Shown here in pieces: positions 2,580 through 24,067 of a stretch of 42,176 nt of DNA (within the stretch, counting starts at the first letter, position 1; each line of letters opens with the position of its first letter). Origin of the DNA: Victivallis vadensis (GTDB taxonomy: Bacteria; Verrucomicrobiota; Lentisphaeria; Victivallales; GWF2-50-93); the NCBI GenBank assembly GCA_020718525.1, contig DYRX01000002.1:1-42176 (forward strand), given 5' to 3'. A program made the translations under genes and the position numbers. The notes below the pieces were generated by a model. It had not been told where the DNA came from and searched no databases. It saw only the letters and a list, made by a program, of their open reading frames with translations.

Positions 2580-2942
2580 ATGAAAATCGCGGTGACTTCT
2601 CAGGATGGAAAAATTGACGGAAAACTTGATCCCCGTTTCGGGAGATCTAAGCATTTCATCGTTTTCGACATCGAGAGCGGCAAGTCGGAGCTTGTTGACA
2701 ACAGCATCAACCTCAATGCGGCTCAGGGAGCTGGAATACAGGCAGGCAGAAATGTGGCGGAGCTCGGTGTCGGCGCCGTAATAACGGGGAACGTAGGACC
2801 GAAGGCGTTTGCGGTGCTCAACGAATGCGGGATTAAGATTTACACCGCCGGAGACTGCAGTGTCAAGGATGCCATAGAGAAATACAGGAACGGAGATCTT
2901 AAGCTTGTTGAAAACGCTAACGTCCAGGGACACTGGGCCTGA
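2580..2942 (+). CDS. NifB/NifX-family (Fe-Mo cofactor biosynthesis domain) small protein
   Basis: The 120-aa ORF reads MKIAVTSQDGKIDGKLDPRFGRSKHFIVFD...AVITGNVGPKAFAVLNECGIKIY, the classic pattern of this domain. Confidence 0.85.
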   Translation: MKIAVTSQDGKIDGKLDPRFGRSKHFIVFDIESGKSELVDNSINLNAAQGAGIQAGRNVAELGVGAVITGNVGPKAFAVLNECGIKIYTAGDCSVKDAIEKYRNGDLKLVENANVQGHWA

Positions 2943-3048
2943 TGCCGGAGCCGCGCATTCCTGTTATTTCTTACAATGTCCAATGACCAATCCGCCGAGG
3001 CGGAAATATCCAAACACCGAATTCAAAAAAATAAAGGAGGCAAATAAC

Positions 3049-5165: not shown

Positions 5166-5194
5166 TTGACAATATGCGATGTCGGATGATTGTA
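5166..5194 (+). promoter_or_regulatory. Possible sigma-70-type promoter of the 18.8-kb operon (TTGACA with a weak -10)
   Basis: TTGACA at 5166..5171 lies inside the 11-mer CTTGACAATAT, which is shared with 825..835. The only -10 candidate at 17 nt is ATTGTA, which is weak. Confidence 0.25.
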
Positions 5195-5253
5195 CCACAC
5201 TGAAGGTCATAACAGAAGAAGGCAATCTCATAAGTAACGAGGAGGAAGAGGAG

Positions 5254-9695: not shown

Positions 9696-9734
9696 ATTTT
9701 CATACCTGGAACACGAACTCATCACGGAGGCTTT

Positions 9735-10714
<980 letters not shown>

Positions 10715-10718
<4 letters not shown>

Positions 10719-11590
10719 GCAGACCTCTCTACAAGTATCTGAAGCCGGAGGATATCCGCAAGCTCTCGAGCTTCGAGTTCGCTCCGAAACTTCTTGTAGA
10801 GGGCTTCTTTGCGGGTCGGCACTGTTCCCGCATGCAGGGGCTTTCAACCGAATTCCGCGACTACCGCCAGTATGTTTCCGGCGATGACATCTCCTTCCTG
10901 GACTGGGGCGTATTTGCAAGGACCGACCGCTATTATGTGAAGACATACGAGCAGGAGACCAACACTGTATGCCATATTTTTCTTGACAGCAGTGCTTCCA
11001 TGGGCTTCGGAACCAAAGCGACAAAGCTCGAGTACGGATCTTTCTTTGCCGCCGCGCTCTGCTATCTTGTCACCAGGGGCGGCAACACTGTCTCCCTGCA
11101 GATATTCGATGACCGCATCAGGAATTTCAATCCGCCGGGAAGCACCCCCTCGCATCTGCACAATCTCCTGCATGTCCTCGAGAAAAACAGACCCGGGAAC
11201 GCCACAAATTTGGGGGAGGCGCTCAGACGCTCATTCCCCCTCCTCCATCGCCGTGGTTCGCTGGTGATAATCTCAGATTTCTTCGACGATCCGGTTGAAA
11301 TATTCTCCGCATTGAACCAGTATGTCCACAGAGGCTTCAAGATCTATCTTTTCCACATACTAGCGCCTGAGGAGCTTGACCTTGGAACAAGAGGACTGCT
11401 CAAATTCGTTGACATGGAGAACGACTCTGCGCTCACGGTCCATACGGACAGCATCAGGCCGCACTACGAAAGGGCTATCGCAGGCCACATTGGAGCGATG
11501 CGCGCGCTTTCATGCAGGAAAAAAGTCGAATATACTTTCGCGACAACAGAGACACATTATTTTTCCCTTTTCGAAAAATTGGTCAAATGA
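10715..11590 (+). CDS. DUF58-family protein (VWA-like fold), the usual MoxR partner
   Basis: The GTG start overlaps the MoxR stop (GTGA). Motifs are FRDYRQYVSGDDISFLDW and a DxSxS-like IFLDSSASMGFG. Confidence 0.9.
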
Positions 11591-11600
11591 GCTGATTCCA

Positions 11601-13625
11601 ATGGAAATAGTATTTCAAAATCCGGGATTTCTGCCCTTTCTCCTGCTTGCGGCGGCGCCACTGATTCTCCATCTTTTCGCGCGCGCCAGACCACCTGTGT
11701 ATATGTTCAGCTCAAACAGCCTTCTGCGGAAAATATTGAAATACAGGATGCGGCTAAAAAAACCGCGCGACATGATTCTCCTCGCTGTCAGGACTCTTCT
11801 TTTCTTTTCGCTTGTCATGCTTTTCCTTCTGCCGCTTCTTTTCATGAACAGCAATTTTGCGGCGCCTTTCGAGAAAAAGACAGTGCTTATTATTGTAGAT
11901 GCGACCGCTTCGACCAGCTATCTCGAGGGAGGGCAGACCCGCTTTGCCGCGGGGTGCGCGGAAGCCTCCGAAATAATTTCCGGGCTTGGTTCCGGCGACA
12001 GGGCCAATGTGATATGGCTGAAATATCAGTCATCGGCAGTCTATCCAGCCCCCGGACCGAACATGAATTTTCTACAGCAGGAGCTTCGCAGAGCCTCTGT
12101 AACTGCCGAGACATCAGACATATCCAGCGCCGTCAGCCTCGCTGTCGGCATGCTTGAAAAAGCAGAAGGGCGCAGGCAGATATGCGTCATTTCCGACTTC
12201 CAGGCGTCTGAATGGGGTGAAATCGCCGTGAAAATTCCGAAAACCGTTGACGTCATGACAATATCCACTGGCAAGACTGCGGCGTCAAACCAGTCTGTCG
12301 CGAGGGTTTTCAGCCGCCCGGCAAGTCCGGTCATTGGCGAAGATCTGACGCTGTTCTGCGAGATTCGCAATTTTTCACCTGAGCCGCGCCAATGCACCGT
12401 CTACTTGAAAACCTCTGAAATCCGCCATGAAAAGGAAATCTCAATACCCGCATGGGGGTCTGCGGTGCCAGGCTTCAAATGCTCATTTAAGAATTCCGGA
12501 ATCGTGCCGTATAAATTTGAAATTGGCGAGGATCTCTTCCCGGACGACAATTCAAGGTGGGGCATTCTAAATGTCAGAAAATTCATCAGCGCCGGCGTAG
12601 CCGCAGGAGACGAGAAAAATCGCTCATGCTGGTACAAGGCATTGAAATCAATCGGATGGATCAAGACGGACACAGTTGATATTGACACTATTGGGAAGTC
12701 GCAGGCTGACATCGTTTTCCTCTCTGCATGGAACGGAGAGAACCCGGAAGCGCTTGCATCTTGCATAGGAGCAGGGCACAACGTCGTATGCTGTCCGGCG
12801 GACGGCGCCGATCTCGCAAAATTCTTCAGCATATTGGTTCCGGGCTCCGCCCCCCGGGATACGAAATTTGCGCTCGAAAGCTCTAAAAAGCCGCGCAAAA
12901 TGAAGCTCGCAAGGCAGGACGCGGAGATATTCTCCCTTTTCGCGACGGGAGAATTTGGAGATCCGCTGAAAGGTAATTTCATGACGAGGCTGAATTTCCC
13001 GCCGCTGGCGCTTCCTCCCACCGGAGATGTCCTTCTCGAATATGACGACGGCATCCCGGCATTGGCATCCTACCGCCATGGCAGAGGCGTTTTTTACTTC
13101 TGGAATATTTTTCTTGGAGAAGAGCGCAGTGACTGGGCTTCGAGTCCGCAGTTTGTGCCCTTTATGGGAGAGCTTGTGATGAACGTCTGCCGCGATCCGC
13201 TGGATCTTCCGGAGAAGACAAGCTTTTCTCCAGGGCAAAAAATGGTGTTTGATCTGAAAGGCGACGAATCAGCCGAAGATCTGTCTCTCGCCGGCGAGGA
13301 TGAAAAAATATTGCCGGTGCATCAGATCCTTTCCGCGGATAAGAGATTTTTTGTCAGCGATCCGGCGGAGGAATGCGGTCTCTACACCTGGAAACACAGG
13401 GACAGCACACTGGGATATTCGACTGTGGATTTCGTGCCGATCGAGTCGGATCTCAGGACACTGCCAGAGCAGACGATAGCAAAAATCGGCGCAATATCAT
13501 CCTCCGGTGGCGGAGGAATAAGGGACTTCGTCCATGGAATTGAAGTCTGGCCGTATTTCCTCCTTTTAGCCGTTCTGCTCATTCTGCTTGAAGGTTCTGT
13601 CGCCTTATGGATGGAGAAAACATGA
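11601..13625 (+). CDS. BatA-type N-terminal double-transmembrane domain protein with a degenerate VWA-like module and a C-terminal TM anchor
   Basis: I chose ATG 11601 over the track start at 11376, which overlaps the DUF58 gene. The N-terminus FQNPGFLPFLLLAAAPLILHLFARAR matches the aerotolerance-regulator N-terminal pattern. VLIIVDATASTS is also present, and the last 25 aa are hydrophobic. Confidence 0.8.
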   Translation: MEIVFQNPGFLPFLLLAAAPLILHLFARARPPVYMFSSNSLLRKILKYRMRLKKPRDMILLAVRTLLFFSLVMLFLLPLLFMNSNFAAPFEKKTVLIIVDATASTSYLEGGQTRFAAGCAEASEIISGLGSGDRANVIWLKYQSSAVYPAPGPNMNFLQQELRRASVTAETSDISSAVSLAVGMLEKAEGRRQICVISDFQASEWGEIAVKIPKTVDVMTISTGKTAASNQSVARVFSRPASPVIGEDLTLFCEIRNFSPEPRQCTVYLKTSEIRHEKEISIPAWGSAVPGFKCSFKNSGIVPYKFEIGEDLFPDDNSRWGILNVRKFISAGVAAGDEKNRSCWYKALKSIGWIKTDTVDIDTIGKSQADIVFLSAWNGENPEALASCIGAGHNVVCCPADGADLAKFFSILVPGSAPRDTKFALESSKKPRKMKLARQDAEIFSLFATGEFGDPLKGNFMTRLNFPPLALPPTGDVLLEYDDGIPALASYRHGRGVFYFWNIFLGEERSDWASSPQFVPFMGELVMNVCRDPLDLPEKTSFSPGQKMVFDLKGDESAEDLSLAGEDEKILPVHQILSADKRFFVSDPAEECGLYTWKHRDSTLGYSTVDFVPIESDLRTLPEQTIAKIGAISSSGGGGIRDFVHGIEVWPYFLLLAVLLILLEGSVALWMEKT

Positions 13626-15847
13626 ATCCACTGCTTCCATCTGAATATCTGGCGCTCGTCTTTGCCTCAGTACTTGGCGCTGGCACATGGCTTTCATGGA
13701 AATCATCAATTAAAATGCGACCGGGGCTGAGAGTACTCGTGACTGCCCTCAGAATCATTTCCATAGCCTGTCTTGCAGTGATAGCCTTCAATCCAGGAAA
13801 TTGGAAGTCCCCCGGCGAGCAGAAAAAGAAGGAGATCGCCATTCTCGTTGACAGAAGCCGGAGCATGGATGTCAAAGACAGCGGGGCTTCCTCGCGATGG
13901 GCAGAGGCATGCCGTCTCGCCTCCCGGACTACGGAATTCTTGAAAAAACCGGATTGCATCGAGTCCAGAACATATCCATTTGCAGAAGGTCTCGAGAAAT
14001 CCGCCGAAACAGTTTCTGATCTTGGCGGACTCAAGCCTGATGGCACCGGCACAGGAATTCTCAAGTCATGCTCCATGCTCCTTGAAAAATACAGGGGCTC
14101 CGAGAGACAGCTTTCAGCAATAGTCCTGCTTTCTGACGGCAGAAACACCTGCGCCGGAGATTTGAAGGAGACGACACTCGCCCTCCGTTCCGAAGATGTC
14201 AAAGTCCATGCTGTCGCCATTGGCGGCTATGTGCCTCTTAAAAATCTTTCTGTGATACTGCCGAGAAGGCATTATACGGCTTTTCCGGGACAGTCTGTGA
14301 AAATAACCCCAAAAGTCGCGGCGATGAACACAGGTCCACTGCAAGTGGATTTGACGCTCTCTGATCCTGGCGGAAAAGATATTGAAACGAGGAAACTAAG
14401 CTTGGAAGACAATTCATCCGGGACTGTAGAGTTCAGAATAAATTTCGAGAAGCCTGGCTACTTCAGCTACAGATTGACAGCAAGATCAGCGCTTGAAGAA
14501 AGCAACGGGAGCGACAATCATATGGATTTCCATGTGAGCGTCCTTGAAAAGAAGCTTAAGATCATCTACATCGAAGGCATGCCATACTGGGACAGCAAAT
14601 TCCTCGCACAACTCCTGCGCCAGGATTCGAATATCGAACTCACCACAGTACATCGTCTTTCATCGGAACGCTATTACTCAGTCGGAACCGACACTTCCCG
14701 GACAGAAGAGTCGTCTCAGCCGATCTTCCCGGACAGCATCGGCGAACTGCTTGCCTATGATGCCGTTATAATTGGAAAAGGCGCCGAATATTTTCTGAAT
14801 GCATTCCGTGTCACCCTGCTGAAGGAATATATAAGAGATCATGGAGGTGCAGTTCTTTTCGCAAGAGGACGTCCGGCTGAAAGCGAAGTCCCCGGGCTTG
14901 ACAGCATAGAACCTGCAGTCTGGGGCGAGACAATCAGGACTGATTTCTACTGGGAGCCGACGCCTGATGGCGAGGAGACAGGACTTTTCGGAGATCTTCT
15001 TCCCGGCCGCGCCGATCCGATCTGGAAAGAACTGCCGCCGCTGACATCCGCCCTGCAGGTCGTTGAACTCAAGACATTTGCAAAAGTGCTTGCCGTCGGC
15101 ATTCCATCATCGCAGATTGGCGCGTCGCGCATTTCATTCCCCTGCGTGATCAGCAGAAAATATGGCAAAGGAATCGTCATGACTGTGAACTCCGAAGGGC
15201 TCTGGAAATGGGACTTTTTCCCGGTTTCGGAAAAGGCTCAAAAGTTCTATAGGGAATTCTGGATCCAGGCGATACTCTGGATGGCAAGGCATTCAGACTA
15301 TATGCCAGGGCAGGATTATTCACTGAGGCTCGGCAAAAGAAATCTCATGCCATGCGAGCCGCTTATGATCTCGGTCAGCAGACGCCGCGGAAATGATGGT
15401 ACCGCCAAGCTTCCGCTCGTCAAAGTATTCGATGGAGACAAGGAGGTGAAGCAAACGCCGCTTTCAGAAAACGCAGGCTCCGGAGACAGTTTTTCGGCGC
15501 TCGTCACGATGGATTTTCCAGGAGACTACACCGTCGCCCTTGTAACGGAAAAAGGCTGTAGAATAGCCAGGGAGGCATTCAGCGTGGGAAGACTCCCGCT
15601 CGAAAAGGACAATCTCAGCGCAGACGTGAAATTCCTCGAAACGCTTGTCTCTGAAACGGCGGGACGCATGCTGGAGGAAAAAAATCTGGACGAGATTTTT
15701 CACGACGAGTTGAAAGAGACTGCGGCTGGCGCGGAAAGCTCCATGGCAGTCTGGGATCCGCACTGGGACACTTGGACTGTACTGGCGCTGATGCTCCTGG
15801 TTTTATGCGCGGATATTTATCTGAGAAGAAGGAGCGGGCTGTCCTGA
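13607..15847 (+). CDS. Membrane-anchored VWA-domain protein with a central glutamine-amidotransferase-like (DUF1355/ThuA-like) region
   Basis: It has N-terminal TM helices and a MIDAS-type ILVDRSRSMD. KIIYIEGMPYWDSKF...YDAVIIGKGAEYF suggests a GATase-like fold, and there is a C-terminal TM helix. An alternative start, ATG 13622, forms an ATGA overlap with the upstream stop. Confidence 0.8.
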   Translation: MDGENMNPLLPSEYLALVFASVLGAGTWLSWKSSIKMRPGLRVLVTALRIISIACLAVIAFNPGNWKSPGEQKKKEIAILVDRSRSMDVKDSGASSRWAEACRLASRTTEFLKKPDCIESRTYPFAEGLEKSAETVSDLGGLKPDGTGTGILKSCSMLLEKYRGSERQLSAIVLLSDGRNTCAGDLKETTLALRSEDVKVHAVAIGGYVPLKNLSVILPRRHYTAFPGQSVKITPKVAAMNTGPLQVDLTLSDPGGKDIETRKLSLEDNSSGTVEFRINFEKPGYFSYRLTARSALEESNGSDNHMDFHVSVLEKKLKIIYIEGMPYWDSKFLAQLLRQDSNIELTTVHRLSSERYYSVGTDTSRTEESSQPIFPDSIGELLAYDAVIIGKGAEYFLNAFRVTLLKEYIRDHGGAVLFARGRPAESEVPGLDSIEPAVWGETIRTDFYWEPTPDGEETGLFGDLLPGRADPIWKELPPLTSALQVVELKTFAKVLAVGIPSSQIGASRISFPCVISRKYGKGIVMTVNSEGLWKWDFFPVSEKAQKFYREFWIQAILWMARHSDYMPGQDYSLRLGKRNLMPCEPLMISVSRRRGNDGTAKLPLVKVFDGDKEVKQTPLSENAGSGDSFSALVTMDFPGDYTVALVTEKGCRIAREAFSVGRLPLEKDNLSADVKFLETLVSETAGRMLEEKNLDEIFHDELKETAAGAESSMAVWDPHWDTWTVLALMLLVLCADIYLRRRSGLS

Positions 15848-15848
15848 C

Positions 15849-18647
15849 ATGAATACGAATCCTGTGGCAATTTTCCAGAAAAGACTCGCTTCCTTGAGAA
15901 GGCGGAGGCAGGCGGCTCTTCTCGCTATTGACATTCTGGCGCTGTCCGGAGAGGCGCTGATGCTTCTGGCAATATACGCGCTCGCCGACTTCTTTTTGGC
16001 GTTTCCTCCCGCCGCCCTTGTCATAATTGACGCTTCCATCGTTGTCCTCCTGCTTCTGCATTTTATCCTCCGCGCAAGCAGGACGGCATCCTATTCGGAT
16101 GGAAAAATGTCGGAAGATCTCGACAAGGCGTTCGAACACCGCAGGCAGGATATCCTGAGCGCATATGAACTGCGGAAAGAAATTCGGAGCCGGGACGGAG
16201 ACACCGATATCCGCGAATATCTCGTCGCCCGCGTGATGAAGAAGGCAAGCCACATTATTGAGGAAGCCGGATTCAGACAAATCATGCCGTTCCGCGAATT
16301 TCGCAACGTCGCAAAAATGTTTCTTGTCCAGGTGCTTGTCTGCGCGGCAATACTTGGCATTCCGCGCCATGCGAGCGCCATTATTCTCGCGAGAATTTTT
16401 CATCCGTTCGATGACAATCCCCCATACAGCTCCTACACCTTTGAAATAGATCCGGCGGAGCCGGAGGTCATATACGGTGGAAACATTGAGATTTCAGCGA
16501 CTGTCAGAGGAGCAAAGACGCTCTCACAGGTCTGGCTGATGACCAGGGACGAGACCGGAATGATTCACAAAGCACCATGCTTCCGCGAGGGCGGAAACAA
16601 GTTTGTCCAGCGCATAGAAAAAGTCACAGCTCCGCTCAGTTTCTGCTTCTCGACGGGCAGGGCTAGAAGCAGATGGACTAATCTGGAGCTCCTCCTCCAG
16701 CCGCAGATATCCATGGCTCAGATCAGTCTGGCTCCGCCCGCCTACAGCAGGCTTCCAGCAAAAACTTTTTATGCTGGTGCCGCCGAACTGCAGGGATTGC
16801 CCGGCACCATTGCGGAACTCTCGATAAGCAGTAACAGACCCCTTTCCCATGGAAGACTTTCTCTGAAATACAAGAAGACAGGAGCGACAGAAATCATAGC
16901 CGCAGAAAAAAGCGGCGACAAGAGTCTGCTTTTCAGATGGGAGATAAAGGAAGAGGCCCAGCTCAAGGCGTATGTCAGCGATTTTATCGGCACTGAATGC
17001 CGTGAACCGCTATTGATGGCGCAGACTTTGAAGGAAGATGCGCCCCCCAGGATCCATCTGCTGTCGCCGGAGACATTCCTGCTAGCCACCCCGTCCGTCA
17101 AAGTACCTGTATCTGCACGTGCAGAAGATGATATCGGCATTAAACGGATAGATTTTGTCAGATCCGTGACTGGCTTCAGAGACAGGGCTGTCTTTGCAGG
17201 TCCTCGGGAACACACCCGCAGTTACAGTTATGAAACATCTCTAGATCTCAAGGTACTCGGAGTAGTGCCGGGAGAGACAATAGAACTATATTTCGAAGCG
17301 TCTGATTTCAATCCGAGCATGCTCGGCTATGCGGTTTCAGATGTTGCGAAGATATCTATAATTTCCGAAGAGGATTATGCCAGACAGCTCAGAGACAGGA
17401 CAGCCTGCGAACAGTTCTTTGAACGCTACAGAGTCATGGAGGCGGAACTGCTTGAGCTGAAAAAACTTCTATCCGAAATGAAACAATCCCTTCAGAAAGG
17501 GGAGCTTGACTTGGAGGGAAAGGGATCCATGATAAAGAAAATAAAGGAGGCAAACGACCGTGCTAGAAATTTATTTGGCGGGCTGGAGAAAGACTTTCCA
17601 ATATATGACATCGAAAAGGAGCATGGGGGGATTCTGGAAGAATTCACAAAGTTATTTGATAAGAATGAGCTGGCGATTTCCCAAATGAAGCCTTCAGATT
17701 CCAATCCAGATCTGGAAACAAAGATTGATGAGCTTCTGAATCAGACGGAGTCTTCGCAGGGGAGCATGGACGAGATGACAAAAGATGCCGGAGAACTCGA
17801 AAAACTAGTCAAGGTGCTTAGGCACTCAGTCAAGTTCATGGCTCTCCTCGGCCAGCAGGAATATCTTGCGAGGCGCCTCCAACGCTATGCCTCGGAAAAC
17901 ACACCCGTTGCAGGCAGTCCAATGCTAAAGACATTGGGAATCAAGGAGATGGAAATCAGAAAAGAGCTGATGCTTCTGTCTTCACAGCTTGCGGAAGATG
18001 CCAAGGCAATCACGGACGCGCAATATGACGACCTAAAGAAAAGCTCTCTGAAATTTTCCAGGAGGATCGATGAACTTGAGATTCCCGAGCTGATGAGGAA
18101 ATCGGCTGAGACGGCGGAAAGCGGCAATGGCGAAAGAGCCCATCACCATGGAAAGCTCGCCCTGGAAAAAATGCGCCAGATAGCATCGGAATTCGAAGAG
18201 TCGGAATTTGGATCGTGCTGTCTCGGCAACGAGGGGAGATTCAATCCTTCGTTCAGCCTAAGGACTAGGGACAGAATCCAGAAGACCCTCGGCGAGCTTC
18301 TCCAGTCGCTGATCTGCCAGCAGAAAGGCGGAAGGGGAGCAGGATCAGGGCTCGGAATCGGCGGAGGGGGGCTCGGGAATCTGAATGACGGCTATTCCGC
18401 TGGCGATTATTCGCCGCTGAAAATTCCAATCATCGGTCCGGACAGACTCGAGCTTTCGCAGTCCGAAAATACAGGAGCTTCCAACGATGATGGCGCAGTC
18501 GCGGCGGGGAAATCCGGCATCGGAGCGGAGAACAGGGAACTGCTCAAAATTGATGATCGCACAAAAACTGGAACCGAAAGCATTCCGCTCGACGAAGTCC
18601 CGGAAAAATACATAGATGCAGTGAAAAACTATTTTGGTCAAAACTGA
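15849..18647 (+). CDS. Large membrane protein (932 aa), DUF4175-like: N-terminal TM hairpin, beta-rich middle, coiled-coil C-terminal half with a Gly-rich patch
   Basis: It starts 1 nt after the previous stop. The TM segment is LAIDILALSGEALMLLAIYALADFFLAFPPAALVIIDASIVVLLLLHFIL. The family assignment is tentative and rests on position in the operon and on architecture. Confidence 0.65.
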   Translation: MNTNPVAIFQKRLASLRRRRQAALLAIDILALSGEALMLLAIYALADFFLAFPPAALVIIDASIVVLLLLHFILRASRTASYSDGKMSEDLDKAFEHRRQDILSAYELRKEIRSRDGDTDIREYLVARVMKKASHIIEEAGFRQIMPFREFRNVAKMFLVQVLVCAAILGIPRHASAIILARIFHPFDDNPPYSSYTFEIDPAEPEVIYGGNIEISATVRGAKTLSQVWLMTRDETGMIHKAPCFREGGNKFVQRIEKVTAPLSFCFSTGRARSRWTNLELLLQPQISMAQISLAPPAYSRLPAKTFYAGAAELQGLPGTIAELSISSNRPLSHGRLSLKYKKTGATEIIAAEKSGDKSLLFRWEIKEEAQLKAYVSDFIGTECREPLLMAQTLKEDAPPRIHLLSPETFLLATPSVKVPVSARAEDDIGIKRIDFVRSVTGFRDRAVFAGPREHTRSYSYETSLDLKVLGVVPGETIELYFEASDFNPSMLGYAVSDVAKISIISEEDYARQLRDRTACEQFFERYRVMEAELLELKKLLSEMKQSLQKGELDLEGKGSMIKKIKEANDRARNLFGGLEKDFPIYDIEKEHGGILEEFTKLFDKNELAISQMKPSDSNPDLETKIDELLNQTESSQGSMDEMTKDAGELEKLVKVLRHSVKFMALLGQQEYLARRLQRYASENTPVAGSPMLKTLGIKEMEIRKELMLLSSQLAEDAKAITDAQYDDLKKSSLKFSRRIDELEIPELMRKSAETAESGNGERAHHHGKLALEKMRQIASEFEESEFGSCCLGNEGRFNPSFSLRTRDRIQKTLGELLQSLICQQKGGRGAGSGLGIGGGGLGNLNDGYSAGDYSPLKIPIIGPDRLELSQSENTGASNDDGAVAAGKSGIGAENRELLKIDDRTKTGTESIPLDEVPEKYIDAVKNYFGQN

Positions 18648-18658
18648 AGGAGTGCAGA

Positions 18659-19339
18659 ATGAAAAGTATACCTGGCATTGCTTTTATTTATTCATCCCTA
18701 TTTTTCTTCGCATCAATTGCTTTGCTGTTTACGGCGGACTTGTCAGCCAAGGATGAAGTTGTCCAGTGCGCGAACCTGATCTATGCCGGAAATAACACGT
18801 CGAGATGCTTCAGCGATGAGTTTCTCAGCATAGTACAGCGAAAAACCGCCATATCTACAGAGAGAAGATTCAAGAGCGTAAAACTAGATTCGGAAGAGCT
18901 TTTCAAATATCCTTTTGCCATGATGACGGGCGAAGCTGATTTCATATTCAGCCAGAAGGAGAGGGAAAACCTGAAGAGGTATCTGGCAAGCGGCGGCTTC
19001 ATGCTCGTCTCCGCCGGATGTTCTAGCAGGAACTTCGACCAGGCTTTCCGCAGGGAGATAAAAGCAGTCTTCAAAGATGCCAAACTCGAGTCAATCCCGA
19101 TCGAGCATCCTCTTTTCAGGACGGTCAATGATATAAGGAAATTGGAATTGAGCCATGAATCCAGCGAAAAGGTTTCCCTCGAAGGACTTCAGATAAACGG
19201 CAAAATCGTACTCATATATTCCCGGCATGGCCTGAATGACACTGCCAACACTCGCGGCTGCTGCTGCTGTGGAGGCAATGAACTCAGAAACGCCTCGGAT
19301 ATAAATGTCAACATATTGGTCTATGCATTACTGCATTGA
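18659..19339 (+). CDS. DUF4159-family exported protein with a CCCC motif
   Basis: It has a signal peptide and the DUF4159-like pattern YPFAMMTGEADFIFSQKERENLKRYLASGGFMLVSA. Four consecutive Cys codons lie at 19259..19270. Confidence 0.75.
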   Translation: MKSIPGIAFIYSSLFFFASIALLFTADLSAKDEVVQCANLIYAGNNTSRCFSDEFLSIVQRKTAISTERRFKSVKLDSEELFKYPFAMMTGEADFIFSQKERENLKRYLASGGFMLVSAGCSSRNFDQAFRREIKAVFKDAKLESIPIEHPLFRTVNDIRKLELSHESSEKVSLEGLQINGKIVLIYSRHGLNDTANTRGCCCCGGNELRNASDINVNILVYALLH

Positions 19340-19366: not shown

Positions 19367-22300
19367 ATGAATAGAGCGGCAAAGCAATTGTCAGCATCCT
19401 TCCTATTTGCGATGCTCATTGTTTCCACAGCGCATTCCAACGTTCCCTTAGGGAAAACGCCGAAAATCCCGGAGGGGGTGCCTGGCGGCATTTTATTGGA
19501 AGCGCCTGCCGACATTGCAGGAAAAGGCAAATCAGAGGAACTTCCACCCATCTGGCAGAAATCTCTTTCGACCGCCCTGATCATGGCAGGCATGGAGTAC
19601 CGTCCAGTCTTCCTTTTCTTCCATTCCCCAGAATGTCCGTGGTGTGCAAGGCTCAAGGAACTTTTTGAGGACAAGGATATTGAGTCCGTGCTTAAACATT
19701 TTATTCTCGTGGAATGCGATGTGAACAAAGATCCCGCCACCGCCCATAATTATCAGGTGCAGGGAGTCCCGCTGATTCTTTTCATTTCCGGAGACGGCCG
19801 TATCAGAGGCGCGGTTCAGGGATTTACAACAAAAGATGAACTCCTCAGTGCCATAAGATCTGTAATCAGCAACCAGATACAGGTCAGGAAGGATAAGGAA
19901 TCTCTTATGTTGATAAGCAAGCTGGATCAGAATTCCTTTCCCGACGAAAGATGGCCGGATCTGATCCTGCTCATCGGCGACAGAGCTGACGGCAAGGAGG
20001 AGATTGTGAAGCGCATCATGAAACTCTCGCCGTTCCCGAAGGAGAAAATTGTCGCCCTGCTTGAGCACAGGCTTCTTGCCGTCAGGACTGGAGCTATCGA
20101 AATACTCGAAGAGATAGTCGGAGACGAGTTCTCCTACGATCCGTGGCGGAGCAGAGAGGAGAACGCTGACACCATTGCAAGATGGAAGGAATGGGCGGCC
20201 AATAAAGATCCCGTTTCCACTGACAGGCATTCTCCGCTGACAAAGGAAAAATGCGATCGGCTTCTGAACGAGATTATATCCGACAATAAAGACCGCTATT
20301 CAAGGGCGCTAAGAAGCCTTGAAGACTGTGGAGACGGCTGCATCGCGGCGATTGATGAGTTTATCGCCTCGCATGGCTCCCTTTCCGAAGGCGCAAAAAA
20401 CCGGCTGAAAGAAGTAAAGTACATGACAATCCTGTCTGACACGGCGGGAATAGATCCCGGTCCACTGGCGCATCAACTGCTTTCAGGGAGTCTTGACAAC
20501 AGACTCAGGGCAGTGCTGGAACTGAAGAAGGCGGGGCTCCGCGGGGTTCCGATCCTGAAGGACTTCCTTGAACATCCAGAGCCAGTGTTAAGGGAGACTG
20601 CGATAGACACTATTGTTGATACAGGCGGAAGGATGGCGGCGCACATAATTGAAAATCATATCGCGTCGGAAAAGGACAGCGATGTGCTCTTCTCGATATT
20701 GAAAAGTCTTGGGAAGCTGAAAACTAAGACAAGCGCGAAGATACTTGCTTCGTTCCTTTCAAACGGGAACGAGGATCTGGCTGTCATTGCATTGAAAGGC
20801 CTGGCGGACATCAGGGCGGCCAGCATGATAGATCAGATTGCCGGCTGTCTTGATGATCCAAGATGGAGAGTCAAGGTAGCGGCGCTTGAAGCAATCACCG
20901 AACTGGGCGACAAAGGCAAAAGCGCTCTCACAAAAAGCGCGGTGGCAAGGACAAAAATTGAATCCCTGATGAACGACAGCGACGAATATGTGCGCTTCAA
21001 GTCTGTCCTTGCCCTGGCTCACTTCACGTCCGGCGGAACCATGAGGAAGCTCGAGGAAGCCTTCATGAAGGATGACAGCATAAAAGGCGCGGTTATAAGC
21101 TCGTATGGCAGTAGGGACTTATGCATCCCTGACAAATTTGTGAAGGGCCTGGTCGGCAAGGATTCTGCAGTTCTTCTCACGGTGGTCCGGGCGCTTGACA
21201 AGTGCGACGAGAAACAGCTCCATCTCGCTAAATTTCTAGCCGCAAATACGAATCCGGACATATCGGTTCCGGCGGCGGCATTCATCGCGAAAAACGGTTT
21301 TTCCGATCCTGACTCCATTGCGCTCATGGCGGAACTTCTGAAAAATGGCAAGAGGGAAGCTGTTCTGGCCGTGCTGAAAAATCTAAAGATACCAGACAGC
21401 AATTCGAGAAGCTCCGACTATCGGAACGTGCTCGAAGAACTTTCCTTCGCCAGCTCTTCTGAAGGAAGCTCGGATTCCGCCAATTCGTCTATTCCCCCCG
21501 GAACAAGCAAGGATCTGGAGGATCTTTTTGCCGCGTTTGAAAGCGGTGTAGACACTGCAAAGCCTGCCAAGACCGGGAGCCGAGTCGAGATCCCCGCCTC
21601 CGCAAAGCCGGCGCCGCCAGCGGAAACAATATCAGAGCAGAAGGAAAAGCCTCCAGATCTGAATGATATTTTCGAGGCGTTCGGCGACTCCCCCACTCCT
21701 ACTGCATCCTCAGGGAAAGCGGATAAACCAGGAAGAATCTCGCAGAACGACTTTTTCAGCGAAATAAAAAAACTGGCAATGGAGAGCGACGACGAGGAAC
21801 TGAAATTTGCCGCGGCATTAGTGATGATAAGGAAGGGGGACGAGGAAATACTTCCCCTGATGGAAAATCTTTTCCCGTCCCAGACCGAGGAGCTAAGAGC
21901 CGAAATTGTGGACTCGGCTGACAGCGGAACCCTTGCCGCAGGCAAATTCCTTCTCAAGGCGCTTTCGGATCCTTCCATGCAAGTCAGGAAAAATGCGGCG
22001 GCAGGGCTCCTAAAATCGAAACACCCGGAACAGCTTGCAGAATTCCTGAACTCAATTGGAAGGCCGGATTCAAAGCTGAAAATCTATGAATTGGACTGGA
22101 CCAGAATCAGCCTCGGGAACCACTATGACACTAGCGTAAAAGATAAAAAGCTTCGAGCCGTCCTCAGATCCTGGGCGATAAATACGGTGAAAAACAATCC
22201 CGATCCATCATTTAAAGACGCCGCTCTTTTTGTAATCGGAATGACATGGGCCAAAGACGACGGAAAAATCGTGTCGGAATATTTCTCGTCGGAAAATGTC

Positions 22301-24067
22301 TGGCTCCGACGCGCCGCATACTACACACTTTCAAATTCGCTTGACGCTTTCATACTGCAGATACCGGACATGCTCAAGGACAAGTCAGACCGGATAAGGG
22401 AGCTAATTCCGGCGATCGCGTCCGCAAAATACGGCGAGAGCTCCAGATACAGCTCGGAATCTGTCTTTTTCTTTGACGAAAAGAATTTTTTCAGGAACTA
22501 CAACTATGCCAATATCCGGTCATACTCATCACGACGCCCAAAAATGAATCCAGCTGTGAGGGATGCGCTTTTCATGCTAACTTCAGACGAGTCAATGAAA
22601 ATCCGCCTAGATTCGTTTCTGGCTCTTCTTGACGCCCGTGAACCGCTTGATCTCAGGGAACTGATCCGAACGGCAAACTCCTTTCCGGATCAGAAAACGA
22701 TCTCTTCTAAAATCACCAATTTCATAGAAAAGAACTACAAAAGCCTCGGGCGGAATTTTGAGGTGCTTCTGTCATACCTTGACGAGGAAAGCGTCTCGCC
22801 TGAAGATCTTGCAAAGATATACAAGCATTTCAATGTTGACAGCGAATCGCTGAGCTCCTCGCTGGATTTCAAGGCGTTTTACAGAAAATCCGATCCCGTA
22901 GAGGCGGAATTTATTCTTTCGGCAGAAGCCTTGGCGGAACCCGCGCTGGAGAAGATGGAAAATCCGCTCATCGTATATTTTGACAAGCCCGGATGCTCGG
23001 ACTGCACCCGTGTGAAAAAAATCCTCCGCGAAATGAAGGAGCTTTTCCCGGATCTTGAAATCGAGACATACAATATTTCAAAAGTAGATGCCATGCGCCT
23101 TAACGAGGCATACAGCGAAAACGCAGGCACGCCGACTTCGACAAGACTTGTCGCACCATCGGTTTTTTCTGGGAAAGGCTATCTTGTCAAATCGCAGATA
23201 GATTATGACGGCATCAGAAGGCTCCTTTCCGAATCGGCTCCGCTCCCGAGAACTTCGTGGCGCATAAGTCCAGCCAGCGCGGAAATTTTCCGGAACGACA
23301 CCAAGCTCGCCGAACGTTTTTCCAACATAACTTGGCTTGTCGTGGCTTCCGGCGGTTTCTGGGACGGTCTAAATCCGTGCGCCTTTGCGGCTATGATATT
23401 TTTCATTTCATATCTGCGGATTGCAAGGAGGAGTCCCGCTGAAATCGCACATGTTGGAATGGCATTTGTCGCTGGAGTGTTTATCGCATATTATCTCCTC
23501 GGACTCGGCATCTCTGAAATCATCTACCATATATCTTTCTATGAAAATGTTAAAACGTGGTTTGACCGAGCTATGATAGCAATGGTCTTCATTCTTTTTG
23601 TCATGAGCGTATATGACGGAGTCATGAGTGCCAGGGGCCGCACTGAAGATATAAGCCTACAGCTTCCGGAAAGACTGAAGGAGAAGATCAGAACCACGAT
23701 AAGGATAGGGGCAAGGCATCGCCGTTTCATCTCCGCCGCATTCGTCACGGGGCTGACAATTTCTTTCCTCGAGTTTGCATGCACAGGGCAGGTATATCTT
23801 CCGGTAATTCAATATATGCTTGAAAGCGGCGGCAAAAAACTTGCCGCACTGTATTATCTGCTTGTCTACAACGTCGCCTTCGTCCTTCCCCTAGTCATTG
23901 TTTTCATCATCGCATTTTCCGGAATGAAAAATGAAAAACTTGTAGATCTTATGCGAAAGAACGCCGCAATCGTCAAATTTGCGACTGCGCTTCTCTTCCT
24001 CCTCATACTCGTTTTCCTTATATCTCAAAACAAATTTATGATTGCGTCTATTTTTCGCCTGAACTGA
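19367..24067 (+). CDS. 1566-aa exported multidomain protein: thioredoxin-like (CPWC), long HEAT/armadillo-like array, low-complexity linker, second thioredoxin/glutaredoxin-like domain (CSDC) and a DsbD/CcdA-like 6-TM domain
   Basis: AGGAGA precedes the ATG and a signal peptide is present. FFHSPECPWCARLKE places the Cys pair at 19634..19645. There are repeated PBS-lyase/HEAT-like units (DDPRWRVKVAALEAITELGD, DSDEYVRFKSVLALA, DPSMQVRKNAAAGL, and others). VYFDKPGCSDCTRVKKIL places the second pair at 22994..23005. Six C-terminal TM helices carry Cys in TM1 (GLNPCAF, Cys codon 23378..23380) and TM4 (FACTGQ, Cys codon 23780..23782). Confidence 0.85.
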   Translation: MNRAAKQLSASFLFAMLIVSTAHSNVPLGKTPKIPEGVPGGILLEAPADIAGKGKSEELPPIWQKSLSTALIMAGMEYRPVFLFFHSPECPWCARLKELFEDKDIESVLKHFILVECDVNKDPATAHNYQVQGVPLILFISGDGRIRGAVQGFTTKDELLSAIRSVISNQIQVRKDKESLMLISKLDQNSFPDERWPDLILLIGDRADGKEEIVKRIMKLSPFPKEKIVALLEHRLLAVRTGAIEILEEIVGDEFSYDPWRSREENADTIARWKEWAANKDPVSTDRHSPLTKEKCDRLLNEIISDNKDRYSRALRSLEDCGDGCIAAIDEFIASHGSLSEGAKNRLKEVKYMTILSDTAGIDPGPLAHQLLSGSLDNRLRAVLELKKAGLRGVPILKDFLEHPEPVLRETAIDTIVDTGGRMAAHIIENHIASEKDSDVLFSILKSLGKLKTKTSAKILASFLSNGNEDLAVIALKGLADIRAASMIDQIAGCLDDPRWRVKVAALEAITELGDKGKSALTKSAVARTKIESLMNDSDEYVRFKSVLALAHFTSGGTMRKLEEAFMKDDSIKGAVISSYGSRDLCIPDKFVKGLVGKDSAVLLTVVRALDKCDEKQLHLAKFLAANTNPDISVPAAAFIAKNGFSDPDSIALMAELLKNGKREAVLAVLKNLKIPDSNSRSSDYRNVLEELSFASSSEGSSDSANSSIPPGTSKDLEDLFAAFESGVDTAKPAKTGSRVEIPASAKPAPPAETISEQKEKPPDLNDIFEAFGDSPTPTASSGKADKPGRISQNDFFSEIKKLAMESDDEELKFAAALVMIRKGDEEILPLMENLFPSQTEELRAEIVDSADSGTLAAGKFLLKALSDPSMQVRKNAAAGLLKSKHPEQLAEFLNSIGRPDSKLKIYELDWTRISLGNHYDTSVKDKKLRAVLRSWAINTVKNNPDPSFKDAALFVIGMTWAKDDGKIVSEYFSSENVWLRRAAYYTLSNSLDAFILQIPDMLKDKSDRIRELIPAIASAKYGESSRYSSESVFFFDEKNFFRNYNYANIRSYSSRRPKMNPAVRDALFMLTSDESMKIRLDSFLALLDAREPLDLRELIRTANSFPDQKTISSKITNFIEKNYKSLGRNFEVLLSYLDEESVSPEDLAKIYKHFNVDSESLSSSLDFKAFYRKSDPVEAEFILSAEALAEPALEKMENPLIVYFDKPGCSDCTRVKKILREMKELFPDLEIETYNISKVDAMRLNEAYSENAGTPTSTRLVAPSVFSGKGYLVKSQIDYDGIRRLLSESAPLPRTSWRISPASAEIFRNDTKLAERFSNITWLVVASGGFWDGLNPCAFAAMIFFISYLRIARRSPAEIAHVGMAFVAGVFIAYYLLGLGISEIIYHISFYENVKTWFDRAMIAMVFILFVMSVYDGVMSARGRTEDISLQLPERLKEKIRTTIRIGARHRRFISAAFVTGLTISFLEFACTGQVYLPVIQYMLESGGKKLAALYYLLVYNVAFVLPLVIVFIIAFSGMKNEKLVDLMRKNAAIVKFATALLFLLILVFLISQNKFMIASIFRLN

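What the first reader, a model, noticed from the sequence alone, without database searches (positions are those of the whole stretch)
19367..24067. A 1566-aa exported fusion of two CxxC thioredoxin folds, a roughly 1000-aa HEAT-repeat scaffold and a DsbD/CcdA-like 6-TM domain
After a signal peptide comes a thioredoxin-like domain with CPWC (residues 90-93). It is followed by many HEAT/PBS-lyase-like helical repeats interrupted by a Ser/Pro/Ala-rich linker. Next comes a second thioredoxin/glutaredoxin-like domain with CSDC (residues 1210-1213). Six TM helices close the protein, with single Cys residues in TM1 (NPC, residue 1338) and TM4 (ACTGQ, residue 1472). That Cys placement is the one used by DsbD/CcdA to move electrons across the membrane. 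The layout resembles a DsbD-type reductase whose periplasmic arm has been stretched by a giant protein-interaction scaffold. It is the last gene of a Bat-type (aerotolerance-linked) operon. It may deliver cytoplasmic reducing power to a MoxR/VWA-assembled envelope complex. I know of no characterised protein with this architecture.
Basis: partly seen in the sequence, partly recalled or inferred. Interest (0 to 1): 0.8.

Follow-up and report, generated by a model that had tools for sequence, protein, structure and literature searches.

The report
Membrane thiol-electron conduit fused to HEAT scaffold
A giant exported protein, conserved in more than 50 Verrucomicrobiota and Lentisphaerota species, joins a DsbD/CcdA-type membrane module (the kind that carries reducing power out of the cell) to a 1000-residue helical scaffold, always as the last gene of a MoxR/VWA "Bat-like" operon whose function is a long-standing puzzle.

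Summary
ORF 19367-24067 (+) encodes 1566 aa: a signal peptide, a thioredoxin fold (CPWC 90-93), about 1000 aa of HEAT repeats with a Ser/Pro/Ala linker, a glutaredoxin-like fold (CSDC 1210-1213) and six TM helices with Cys1338 (NPC) and Cys1472 (CTGQ).

No Pfam model covers the TM domain of the window protein. Profile-profile comparison aligns all six helices with the DsbD membrane core (87%, E 4e-6, about 14 sd above shuffles), with both cysteines in register. Foldseek against the PDB found nothing for it.

The Grx+6TM cassette belongs to a large unnamed family (at least 6,200 clusters), almost all exported and nearly always carrying extra Trx domains. The HEAT fusion is not an assembly chimera. 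Collinear orthologues occur in about 55 species genomes, and every locus with enough upstream flank follows MoxR-DUF58-BatA/VWA-VWA-(~930 aa)-DUF4159. Phycisphaeraceae keep the operon and the HEAT protein but have a tetrahaem cytochrome c in place of the thiol module.

The adjacent exported DUF4159 protein has seven near-invariant cysteines, including GCCCCGGNE, and is the best candidate client.

Best reading: a CcdA-class reductant conduit wired into a Bat-like envelope complex. Homology is shown; function and client are inferred. It is a new variant of a known kind and I found no paper on it.

The parts
19367..24067 (+). Whole gene: 1566-aa exported, C-terminally membrane-anchored Trx-HEAT-Grx-6TM protein
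   Evidence: ORF list and translation. SD AGGAG lies upstream. Collinear orthologues.
19367..19438 (+). Signal peptide (residues 1-24)
   Evidence: Sequence read directly: n-region with K/R, hydrophobic core, AHS. Orthologues P0003 and P0004 and nearly all complete family members also begin with a signal peptide.
19553..19858 (+). N-terminal thioredoxin-fold domain (residues 63-164). CPWC lies at 19634-19645, with a cis-Pro-type GVP motif.
   Evidence: Pfam Thioredoxin_2 1.2e-14, Thioredoxin 7e-10, Thioredoxin_7 2e-9. CPWC/CGWC is kept in the Lentisphaerae orthologues L020-22 and L051.
19892..22936 (+). HEAT-repeat solenoid (residues about 176-1190). It is interrupted by a Ser/Pro/Ala-rich linker at 21434-21796 that carries two copies of an L-[ED/ND]-[LI]-F-x-A-F motif.
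   Evidence: Pfam HEAT_2 1.8e-25, HEAT 2.5e-14. The region aligns collinearly with P0002-4. Motif positions.
22958..23236 (+). Juxtamembrane glutaredoxin-like domain (residues 1198-1290). CSDC lies at 22994-23005; cis-Pro is P1264.
   Evidence: Pfam Glutaredoxin 4e-10. The AF2 model has pLDDT above 90 with beta-alpha-beta-alpha-beta-beta-alpha order. Foldseek reports probability 1.0 to thioredoxins. CxxC is at least 90% conserved and the Pro is invariant.
23333..24034 (+). Six-TM DsbD/CcdA-superfamily core (residues 1323-1556). Cys1338 (codon 23378-23380, NPC, TM1) and Cys1472 (codon 23780-23782, CTGQ, TM4).
   Evidence: hhalign to the DsbD beta core: 87%, E 4e-6, both Cys in register, z about 14 against shuffles. 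Motifs invariant. NCBIfam ArsG matches weakly in 59/60 members; Pfam DsbD_TM matches 4/60. The positive-inside rule gives N-out.
18659..19339 (+). Upstream neighbour: exported DUF4159 protein with seven near-invariant Cys (C37, C50, C121, GCCCCGGNE 201-204). Candidate client.
   Evidence: Pfam DUF4159 7e-30. Cys conservation is 96-100% in 50 orthologues. 118 of the 120 best homologues keep CCCCGG.
15849..18647 (+). 932-aa membrane-anchored protein without a Pfam domain; conserved operon member
13607..15847 (+). 746-aa VWA protein with N- and C-terminal TM segments
11601..13625 (+). BatA (N-terminal double TM) + VWA_2 protein. The likely ATG start is 11601; the longest ORF starts at 11376.
10715..11590 (+). 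DUF58 protein
   Evidence: Pfam DUF58 1.4e-44.
9735..10718 (+). MoxR-type AAA+ ATPase
   Evidence: Pfam AAA_3 3.9e-62, AAA_lid_2.

Best explanation
**What it is.** The protein is the periplasmic, membrane-anchored scaffold subunit of a seven-gene MoxR / DUF58 / BatA-VWA / VWA / ~930-aa / DUF4159 envelope system of Verrucomicrobiota and Lentisphaerota. Its C-terminus is a CcdA-class member of the DsbD superfamily of transmembrane thiol-disulfide electron transporters.

**Proposed mechanism.**
1. The Sec system exports the first ~1300 residues. The six-TM domain anchors the protein with TM1 running from outside to inside.
2. Cytoplasmic thioredoxin reduces the intramembrane Cys1338-Cys1472 pair.
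3. That pair reduces the CSDC disulfide of the adjacent glutaredoxin-like domain, which plays the part of DsbD-gamma.
4. In the Lentisphaerae-type proteins, including this one, electrons pass on to the N-terminal CPWC thioredoxin domain.
5. The HEAT solenoid docks the redox heads onto the complex and presents the client. The most likely client is the co-operonic exported DUF4159 protein, whose seven near-invariant cysteines (including CCCC) would be kept reduced.

**Status of each part.**
- Shown: domain anatomy, cysteine invariance, homology of the TM core to DsbD, N-out topology by sequence rules, strict synteny.
- Inferred: direction of electron flow, thioredoxin as donor, the Grx-to-Trx relay, the identity of the client.
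For: **Anatomy.**

**TM core homologous to DsbD beta.**
- hhalign gives 87%, E 4e-6, over 210 columns covering TM1-6.
- NPC aligns with TPC (DsbD Cys163), ACTG aligns with PCT (DsbD Cys285), and the LQLP loop motif is shared.
- The real score is 48.5. The 100 column shuffles gave 13.9 +/- 2.4, maximum 23.5.
- Single-sequence controls: DsbD 33.7, RhtC 21.7, RhtB 11.6, RarD 13.3.
- IMG names orthologues 'CcdA/HEAT repeat protein/glutaredoxin'.

**Conservation.** G..G.NPCAF and E..CTGQ.Y.P are invariant. The CxxC is at least 90% conserved and the cis-Pro is invariant, in 60 relatives. The four redox cysteines are the only invariant Cys in the full-length alignment.

**Export.** Signal peptides are present in nearly all complete family members. 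Positive-inside count: about 17 K+R in loops 1-2, 3-4 and 5-6, against about 5 in the other loops. This matches DsbD, whose TM1 follows a periplasmic domain.

**Synteny.** About 30 complete loci plus about 20 partial loci show the same gene order.

**Candidate client.** DUF4159 is the only operon protein with conserved Cys.

**Independent hint of a redox input.** In Phycisphaeraceae a tetrahaem cytochrome c lipoprotein sits between DUF4159 and a HEAT protein that lacks Grx/TM.

**Literature.** The DsbD cascade Trx -> beta -> gamma -> alpha -> substrates is described in PMC3322552. The old proposal that Bat proteins export reducing power to the periplasm is quoted in PMC3557215.
Against: - The window's TM domain gets no Pfam DsbD_TM or DsbD_2 hit. 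Only 4 of 60 relatives hit DsbD_TM, all below the gathering score (23.9 bits against a 27.1 cut-off).
- The PDB sequence search found no CcdA or DsbD.
- Foldseek of a confident TM model (pLDDT 87) against the PDB found nothing significant; the best hit was E 0.1 to ZIP transporters.
- The 3+3 internal repeat expected in DsbD/CcdA is not detectable by sequence.
- TM4 has ACTGQ rather than the proline-flanked PC motif of DsbD.
- The most consistent named hit is the arsenical permease model ArsG (59 of 60 members, but 24 bits against a 200 cut-off).
- Most Verrucomicrobia orthologues lack the N-terminal Trx, so the two-step periplasmic relay is not general.
- DUF4159's cysteines are equally conserved in Phycisphaeraceae, which lack the thiol module. 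The client link therefore rests on association only.
- In Leptospira, bat deletion gave no oxidative-stress phenotype (PMC3557215).
Confidence: 0.55

Rival explanations
1. **Thiol-based metal or metalloid handling rather than electron transfer.** In this reading the two membrane cysteines and the periplasmic CxxC domains pass a soft metal or an arsenical by ligand exchange, following MerP/MerT or ArsG logic. The target could be the CCCC site of DUF4159 or the MIDAS/VWA complex.
For: - NCBIfam ArsG (an organoarsenical efflux permease) is the named model hit most consistently: 59 of 60 members, best E 7e-9, over the full profile length.
- ArsG is described as an efflux transporter (PMC9144182).
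- Weak hits go to SfLAP, which I recall as a member of the same Pfam transporter clan.
- GCCCCGGNE looks like a metal-binding motif.
Against: - ArsG scores are far below the cut-off (24 bits against 200).
- hhalign puts both Cys in register with the redox Cys of DsbD, and DsbD beats the transporter controls.
- The periplasmic partners are complete Trx/Grx folds with a cis-Pro, as in disulfide exchange enzymes.
- No metal-resistance genes lie nearby.
Confidence: 0.12
2. **Same hardware run in the oxidising or isomerising direction.** The module would take electrons from periplasmic cysteines, forming or shuffling disulfides in complex subunits during MoxR/VWA-driven assembly, rather than keeping thiols reduced.
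For: - The stand-alone family often carries DsbA-like CPHC N-terminal domains and Thioredoxin_4 hits.
- DUF4159 has an odd number of conserved Cys, some of which could be structural disulfides.
Against: - The DsbD-superfamily classes described in PMC3322552 (DsbD, CcdA, ScsB) all carry electrons outward.
- No quinone-linked oxidase module (DsbB or VKOR) was found in the Pfam scans of the operon and flanking genes.
- Some CPxC DsbA-fold proteins, such as ScsC, are kept reduced by ScsB (PMC3322552).
Confidence: 0.12
3. **The C-terminal module is mainly a membrane anchor.** It would be inherited by domain capture, and its redox chemistry would be irrelevant to the operon's function. The HEAT protein would be simply a structural scaffold, as in Phycisphaeraceae.
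For: - Phycisphaeraceae orthologues work without Grx/TM.
- Their N-terminal Trx-like fold has lost its CxxC.
Against: - All four redox cysteines plus the NPCAF and CTGQxYxP motifs are kept in about 55 fused orthologues, despite only 27-35% overall identity. That is purifying selection on the chemistry.
- Phycisphaeraceae carry a different redox protein (tetrahaem cytochrome c) at the same position.
Confidence: 0.06
4. **Assembly or annotation artefact.** Two or three genes would have been fused by misassembly or a missed stop codon.
For: No positive evidence for an artefact. The gene caller's own product (P0001) starts 15 aa later, but that affects only the start position.
Against: - Collinear full-length orthologues occur in independent assemblies, including isolate genomes of Luteolibacter, Haloferula, Persicirhabdus and Prosthecobacter, one of them complete.
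- About 50 clusters of 1270-1594 aa are among the best representatives.
- GC content is even.
Confidence: 0.01

Closest known systems
CcdA (six-TM class of the DsbD superfamily; Pfam DsbD_TM PF02683 / COG0785)
   Same: - Six TM helices, with one essential-looking Cys in TM1 and one in TM4.
- [S/T/N]-P-C in TM1 and C-T in TM4.
- N-terminus outside.
- Works with an exported thioredoxin-fold CxxC partner.
- IMG's automatic name for orthologues includes 'CcdA'.
   Different: - Below the Pfam threshold.
- The partner Trx-fold domains are fused N-terminally, not separate proteins such as ResA or CcmG.
- The TM4 motif is ACTGQxYxP rather than P-C-x-x-P.
- No link to cytochrome c maturation genes in the window.
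- Fused to a 1000-aa HEAT solenoid.
DsbD (alpha-beta-gamma) and ScsB of Proteobacteria
   Same: - A single polypeptide combines the membrane Cys pair with periplasmic redox domains in a relay.
- The N-terminal periplasmic part precedes TM1.
- The beta core aligns over TM1-6.
   Different: - No Ig-like alpha domain and no C-terminal gamma domain.
- Six TM rather than eight.
- Both periplasmic redox domains are Trx/Grx folds placed before the membrane domain.
- A giant scaffold is inserted between them.
Unnamed family of exported Trx(n)-Grx-6TM proteins (400-660 aa; Chloroflexota, Thermodesulfobacteriota and others)
   Same: - The same Grx+6TM cassette at 35-39% identity, with the same invariant motifs and spacing (CxxC about 124 aa before NPC; NPC-CTG 136 aa apart).
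- A signal peptide, and usually one or two further N-terminal CxxC Trx domains.
   Different: - No HEAT region and no MoxR/VWA context.
- The family itself is uncharacterised: named 'hypothetical' or given automatic CcdA/glutaredoxin names.
Bacteroides fragilis Bat (aerotolerance) operon and MoxR-VWA systems
   Same: - MoxR AAA+, DUF58 and BatA-type double-TM VWA proteins in one operon.
- Repeat-scaffold proteins sit at the end of the operon.
- The historical hypothesis is of reducing power being exported to the periplasm (PMC3557215).
   Different: - The Bat operon has TPR proteins (BatB/C/E) and BatD, with no thiol-redox domain.
- Here the terminal genes are a ~930-aa protein, a Cys-rich DUF4159 protein and the HEAT-Grx-6TM protein.

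Membership tests
DsbD superfamily (DsbD / CcdA / ScsB membrane core) | Polytopic core of 6 (CcdA) or 8 (DsbD, ScsB) TM helices | tested here: met
   Six hydrophobic segments lie at residues 1335-1552, and AF2 helices match them (pLDDT 87-89).
DsbD superfamily (DsbD / CcdA / ScsB membrane core) | Two conserved cysteines, one in TM1 and one in TM4, in register with DsbD Cys163/Cys285 | tested here: met
   Cys1338 and Cys1472 are invariant in 60-63 relatives. hhalign pairs them with the two DsbD beta cysteines.
DsbD superfamily (DsbD / CcdA / ScsB membrane core) | Significant sequence-profile similarity to bona fide members | tested here: met
   hhalign against a 10-sequence DsbD beta alignment: 87%, E 4e-6, 210 columns. 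Score 48.5 against shuffles 13.9 +/- 2.4. Best among the controls.
DsbD superfamily (DsbD / CcdA / ScsB membrane core) | Match to the Pfam DsbD_TM (PF02683) or DsbD_2 (PF13386) model above the gathering score | tested here: not met
   The window protein gets no hit at E<=1. 4 of 60 relatives hit DsbD_TM, best 23.9 bits against a 27.1 cut-off.
DsbD superfamily (DsbD / CcdA / ScsB membrane core) | Fold match to a solved CcdA or DsbD structure | tested here: inconclusive
   Foldseek of the TM-only model against the PDB gave a best E of 0.1 (ZIP transporters) and no CcdA. Whether the library's CcdA entries are adequate targets is unknown. No AFDB library was available.
DsbD superfamily (DsbD / CcdA / ScsB membrane core) | Homologous inverted 3+3 TM repeat | tested here: inconclusive
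   hhalign of TM1-3 against TM4-6 gave probability 0.8%. The repeat is weak in known members too (from memory).
DsbD superfamily (DsbD / CcdA / ScsB membrane core) | Exported thioredoxin-fold CxxC acceptor on the outer face | tested here: met
   The Grx-like CSDC domain with cis-Pro lies directly before TM1, and the signal peptide plus the positive-inside rule put it outside.
DsbD superfamily (DsbD / CcdA / ScsB membrane core) | Electrons taken from cytoplasmic thioredoxin and delivered to periplasmic substrates | not testable with these tools
   Needs redox-state assays.
DsbD proper (alpha-beta-gamma) | Ig-like DsbD_N alpha domain, eight TM helices, C-terminal gamma thioredoxin | tested here: not met
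   No DsbD_N hit, six TM helices, and nothing after TM6. E. coli DsbD run as a positive control hits all three models.
ArsG organoarsenical permease (NCBIfam NF040495) | Score above the model's curated cut-off (200 bits) | tested here: not met
   19.9-24.4 bits for the window protein. 59 of 60 relatives match, but all weakly.
Bat-type MoxR/VWA operon | MoxR AAA_3 + DUF58 + BatA-domain VWA protein(s) co-oriented in one cluster | tested here: met
   The order is conserved in all loci with enough flank.
Bat-type MoxR/VWA operon | TPR proteins BatB/C/E and BatD as in Bacteroides and Leptospira | tested here: not met
   Pfam reported no TPR family in the operon proteins scanned. The terminal genes are U932, DUF4159 and the HEAT protein.

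The most novel reading that the evidence does not exclude
The Grx-6TM cassette defines a fourth, so far unnamed, class of the DsbD superfamily. Its layout is signal peptide, then Trx(n), then Grx, then 6TM, and it holds at least 6,000 clusters at 50% identity. In Verrucomicrobiota and Lentisphaerota the cassette is built, through a 1000-aa periplasmic HEAT solenoid, into the MoxR/VWA 'Bat-like' machine. This would be the first direct molecular link between such operons and periplasmic reducing power. The Cys-rich (GCCCCGGNE) DUF4159 protein would be the dedicated redox client or cofactor site, and Phycisphaeraceae would supply the same complex through a tetrahaem cytochrome c instead.
Probability: 0.35. 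Interest if true: 0.78.

Novelty: new variant of a known kind. Interest (0 to 1): 0.66.

Why it matters
**The open question.** MoxR-DUF58-BatA/VWA operons are very widespread, and their function has stayed elusive since the 1999 proposal that Bat proteins export reducing power. Bat function was still called elusive in 2012 (PMC3557215).

**What this protein adds.** A subunit of such an operon carries, in one polypeptide, a recognisable DsbD/CcdA-type transmembrane thiol relay. That makes the redox hypothesis directly testable in cultured carriers such as Luteolibacter, Haloferula, Persicirhabdus and Prosthecobacter. It also points to a specific candidate client, the CCCC DUF4159 protein.

**A wider gap.** The work exposes a large branch of the DsbD superfamily that Pfam does not cover, with an N-terminal Trx/Grx arrangement not among the three described classes (DsbD, CcdA, ScsB).

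Tried and rejected
**Searches that led nowhere**
- PDB sequence search with the family profile returned only Trx/Grx hits, and no CcdA or DsbD.
- Foldseek against the PDB with the whole-module model returned only thioredoxin-fold hits. The TM-only model returned nothing significant. The fold test of CcdA membership is therefore inconclusive.
- Pfam DsbD_TM and DsbD_2 on the window's TM domain gave no hit.
- The internal 3+3 repeat test by hhalign was negative.
- tblastn of the module against plasmids, run to find annotated ArsG-like relatives, gave one hypothetical protein only.
- The context of stand-alone family members (P0052 loci; Chloroflexota loci) showed no consistent functional neighbours beyond one Trx/SurA-like protein.
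- Literature searches found nothing for DUF4159+MoxR+BatA, for CcdA+HEAT repeat+Verrucomicrobia, or for CcdA-like fusions.
- The terminator and promoter scan after the stop codon found nothing.

**Readings considered and rejected**
- Assembly chimera: rejected.
- P0006 (Trx+HEAT, no TM; 21% identity) was considered as an orthologue. It is not in a Bat context, since its neighbour is TatC, so it supports only the Trx-HEAT junction.
Full report
**1. The observation**

The window has one uninterrupted ORF at 19367..24067 on the + strand, encoding 1566 aa. An AGGAG Shine-Dalgarno lies 6 nt before the ATG. The product starts with a typical signal peptide, MNRAAKQLSASFLFAMLIVSTAHS. The gene call stored in the protein collection (P0001) starts 15 residues later and would cut this peptide.

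Pfam finds the following:
- Thioredoxin_2, Thioredoxin and Thioredoxin_7 at residues 63-164.
- Many HEAT_2 and HEAT matches.
- Glutaredoxin at residues 1202-1244.

Translating the exact codons confirms CPWC at 90-93, CSDC at 1210-1213, Cys1338 in NPC and Cys1472 in ACTGQ. Hydropathy and two AlphaFold2 models (pLDDT 89 and 87) give six TM helices between residues 1335 and 1552. GC content is even across the gene.

**2. Is the membrane domain related to DsbD/CcdA?**

The evidence is mixed in kind but positive on balance.

*Negative or inconclusive results:*
- No Pfam model covers the TM domain of the window protein.
- Only 4 of 60 relatives touch DsbD_TM, all below the gathering score (P0118 scores 23.9 bits against 27.1).
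- A profile search of PDB sequences finds only Trx/Grx folds.
- Foldseek of the confident TM-only model against the PDB finds nothing (best E 0.1, ZIP transporters).
- An internal 3+3 repeat is not detectable.

*Positive results:*
- I built a reference alignment of the DsbD beta core from E. coli dsbD and nine diverse plasmid-borne DsbD genes.
- hhalign of the 63-sequence TM family against it gives probability 87%, E 4e-6, over 210 columns spanning all six helices.
- NPC is paired with the TPC of DsbD (Cys163). ACTG is paired with PCT (Cys285). A shared LQLP motif lies in the TM3-TM4 loop.
- One hundred column shuffles of the DsbD alignment score 13.9 +/- 2.4 (maximum 23.5), against 48.5 for the real one. 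The reversed alignment scores 15.8.
- Against single sequences, DsbD scores 33.7, RhtC 21.7, RhtB 11.6, RarD 13.3, and a DsbD_2-type ORF 18.7.
- IMG's automatic names for orthologues are 'cytochrome c biogenesis protein CcdA/HEAT repeat protein/glutaredoxin'.
- NCBIfam's ArsG permease model matches 59 of 60 relatives over its full length, but at about 24 bits against a cut-off of 200.

I conclude that the domain is a divergent member of the DsbD superfamily, of the six-TM (CcdA-like) kind. It lies outside the current Pfam models.

**3. The cassette belongs to a large unnamed family**

- Searching residues 1190-1566 returns more than 1,360 relatives.
- A profile search of 1.84 billion representatives gives 6,201 clusters at E<=1e-3 and 2,069 at E<=1e-30.
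- In all 120 listed proteins, NPC and CTG lie 136-137 residues apart. Where the N-terminal part is present, a CxxC sits about 124 residues before NPC.
- Most members are 400-660 aa and carry one or two further N-terminal CxxC domains.
- G..G.NPCAF, E..CTGQ.Y.P and the cis-Pro of the Grx fold are invariant in 60 members. The Grx CxxC is at least 90% conserved.
- Nearly all complete members begin with a signal peptide.
- In the window protein, loops 1-2, 3-4 and 5-6 hold about 17 Lys+Arg, against about 5 in the other loops. TM1 therefore runs from outside to inside, as in DsbD, where TM1 follows the periplasmic alpha domain.

This layout (signal peptide, Trx(n), Grx, 6TM) is not one of the three described classes, DsbD, CcdA and ScsB (PMC3322552). 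I found no paper on it.

**4. The HEAT fusion is real, conserved and tied to the operon**

- The full-length search found P0002-P0004 (1332-1375 aa, 28-30% identity). They align collinearly over the whole scaffold, with conserved motifs such as LDDPRWRVR and PILRDFL..VRETAID.
- A scan of one genome per species found 67 loci, and about 55 of them hold a full-length orthologue.
- The Verrucomicrobiota carriers include Prosthecobacter, Luteolibacter, Haloferula, Persicirhabdus, Akkermansiaceae and Chthoniobacteraceae, among them isolate genomes and a complete chromosome. The Lentisphaerota carriers include Victivallis and Lentisphaerales.
- About 50 of the best 150 representative clusters are 1270-1594 aa with the cassette at the C-terminus.
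- tblastn with the six upstream window proteins shows the same order and strand in every locus with enough upstream DNA: MoxR, DUF58, BatA/VWA, VWA, the ~930-aa protein, DUF4159, then the HEAT-Grx-6TM gene.
- The best matches to the window are Lentisphaerae: 35% for this protein, and 67-72% for DUF4159. The window probably comes from that phylum.
- The N-terminal CxxC thioredoxin (CPWC/CGWC) is present in the Lentisphaerae-type proteins and absent from most Verrucomicrobia.

**5. Origin of the fusion**

Three Phycisphaeraceae genomes keep BatA/VWA, VWA, the ~930-aa protein and DUF4159, together with a 1115-aa HEAT protein. That HEAT protein has no Grx/TM cassette, and its N-terminal Trx-like fold has lost its cysteines. 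Between DUF4159 and the HEAT gene they carry a lipoprotein with four CxxCH motifs (Pfam Cytochrome_C554, E 1.7e-11).

The HEAT protein therefore looks like an older subunit of the operon that acquired a ready-made Grx-6TM cassette. A DsbD whose arm grew is the less likely history. Two different redox proteins occupy the same place next to DUF4159 and the scaffold in different phyla. This suggests that the complex needs an electron input.

**6. A candidate client**

Among the operon proteins only DUF4159 has conserved cysteines.
- It has a signal peptide and seven Cys conserved in 96-100% of 50 orthologues: C37, C50, C121, and an invariant GCCCCGGNE at 201-204.
- 118 of the 120 best homologues keep CCCCGG.
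- The one solved relative (4I66, E 3e-11) lacks these cysteines.
- The HEAT region has no invariant Cys.

A dedicated reducing arm that keeps exported cysteines reduced has precedent in DsbD-fed pathways that act on periplasmic oxidoreductases and peroxiredoxins (PMC3322552). The specific link to DUF4159 is guilt by association only. The same cysteines are conserved in Phycisphaeraceae, which lack the thiol module.

**7. Mechanism proposed**

1. Cytoplasmic thioredoxin reduces Cys1338-Cys1472 in the membrane.
2. This pair reduces the juxtamembrane CSDC domain.
3. In this protein, the CSDC domain then reduces the N-terminal CPWC domain.
4. The HEAT solenoid holds the redox heads on the MoxR/VWA complex and presents the client.

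Shown: the anatomy, the conservation, the homology to DsbD, the sequence-based topology and the synteny. Inferred: the direction of electron flow, the donor, the relay order and the client.

Rival readings:
- Thiol-mediated metal or metalloid transfer, suggested by the ArsG hits and the CCCC motif.
- The same hardware used for oxidation or isomerisation.
- A mere membrane anchor.
- An assembly artefact, which is excluded.

**8. Comparison with what is known, and novelty**

- It works most like CcdA plus a fused acceptor, or like DsbD with a different domain order.
- It fails the Pfam membership threshold and lacks the alpha and gamma domains, so it is not DsbD proper.
- It is far below the ArsG cut-off.
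- The operon shares MoxR, DUF58 and BatA/VWA with the Bacteroides Bat operon but lacks its TPR proteins.
- Automatic pipelines have labelled the three parts. NCBI records say 'hypothetical' for members of the stand-alone family and 'CcdA, partial' for one truncated Verrucomicrobiota relative. I found no experimental or bioinformatic description.

I rate it a new variant of a known kind. The interest lies in the testable link to the old idea that Bat-type operons supply reducing power to the periplasm (PMC3557215), and in the exposure of a large uncharted DsbD-superfamily branch.

Noticed in passing
window 18659-19339 (+): The DUF4159 protein just upstream has a signal peptide and seven cysteines conserved in 96-100% of 50 orthologues, including an invariant GCCCCGGNE. 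The solved relative 4I66 lacks them. It could be a metal or cluster site, a catalytic Cys (SAGCS), or a redox client.
   Followed up: partly
L082 about 8427-9840, L083 8076-9410, L084 about 8025-9410: In Phycisphaeraceae versions of the operon, a 444-470 aa lipoprotein with four CxxCH motifs (a tetrahaem cytochrome c) lies between DUF4159 and a HEAT protein. That HEAT protein lacks the Grx/TM cassette, and its N-terminal Trx-like fold has no CxxC.
   Followed up: partly
proteins P0023-P0126 and P0143 onward; loci L006-L008, L074, L076, L079, L080, L085: There is a very large unnamed family (at least 6,201 clusters at 50% identity) of exported Trx(n)-Grx-6TM proteins with invariant NPCAF and CTGQxYxP motifs. 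Pfam does not cover the membrane domain. Members occur in Chloroflexota, Thermodesulfobacteriota and others.
   Followed up: partly
window 21434-21796 (residues 690-810): The disordered Ser/Pro/Ala linker carries two copies of a short motif (LEDLFAAF at 717, LNDIFEAF at 765). A strict pattern finds the matching LDPLYDAF motif at the equivalent position in about a third of the full-length orthologues. It may be a docking peptide.
   Followed up: partly
window 19367 versus 19412: The gene call stored in the protein collection (P0001, 1551 aa) starts 15 codons downstream and removes the signal peptide. The ATG at 19367 has a good AGGAG SD.
   Followed up: yes
window 11376-11601: The longest BatA/VWA ORF (TTG 11376) overlaps the DUF58 gene by 215 nt. 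The ATG at 11601 (MEIVFQNPGF...) fits the BatA double-TM domain and is the likely start.
   Followed up: partly
window 5179-6273 and 6276-9695 (+): Two tightly packed genes (364 aa and 1139 aa, no Pfam domain) lie directly upstream of MoxR on the same strand. A gene of at least 928 aa also precedes MoxR in L086. They may belong to the same system.
   Followed up: no
L005 8140-9231 and 13664-15085: In one 1-Mb verrucomicrobial contig the operon is interrupted by DDE transposase genes, and the HEAT gene is truncated to 898 aa (P0005). This looks like a decaying copy.
   Followed up: no
window 24229-26133 (-) and 26210-28564 (+): Two large ORFs (634 aa and 784 aa) immediately downstream have no Pfam match.
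   Followed up: no
L023, L025, L027, L028, L030, L052, L057, L067 (Prosthecobacter-type orthologues): The longest ORFs carry an extra CEAC about 70 residues from the N-terminus, although tblastn detects no Trx domain there. This may be an over-extended start or a small additional redox motif.
   Followed up: no
window 2905-4278 (+): A fusion of an Mrp/NUBPL-type P-loop ATPase (Pfam ParA) with a dinitrogenase FeMo-cofactor-binding-like domain (Nitro_FeMo-Co).
   Followed up: no
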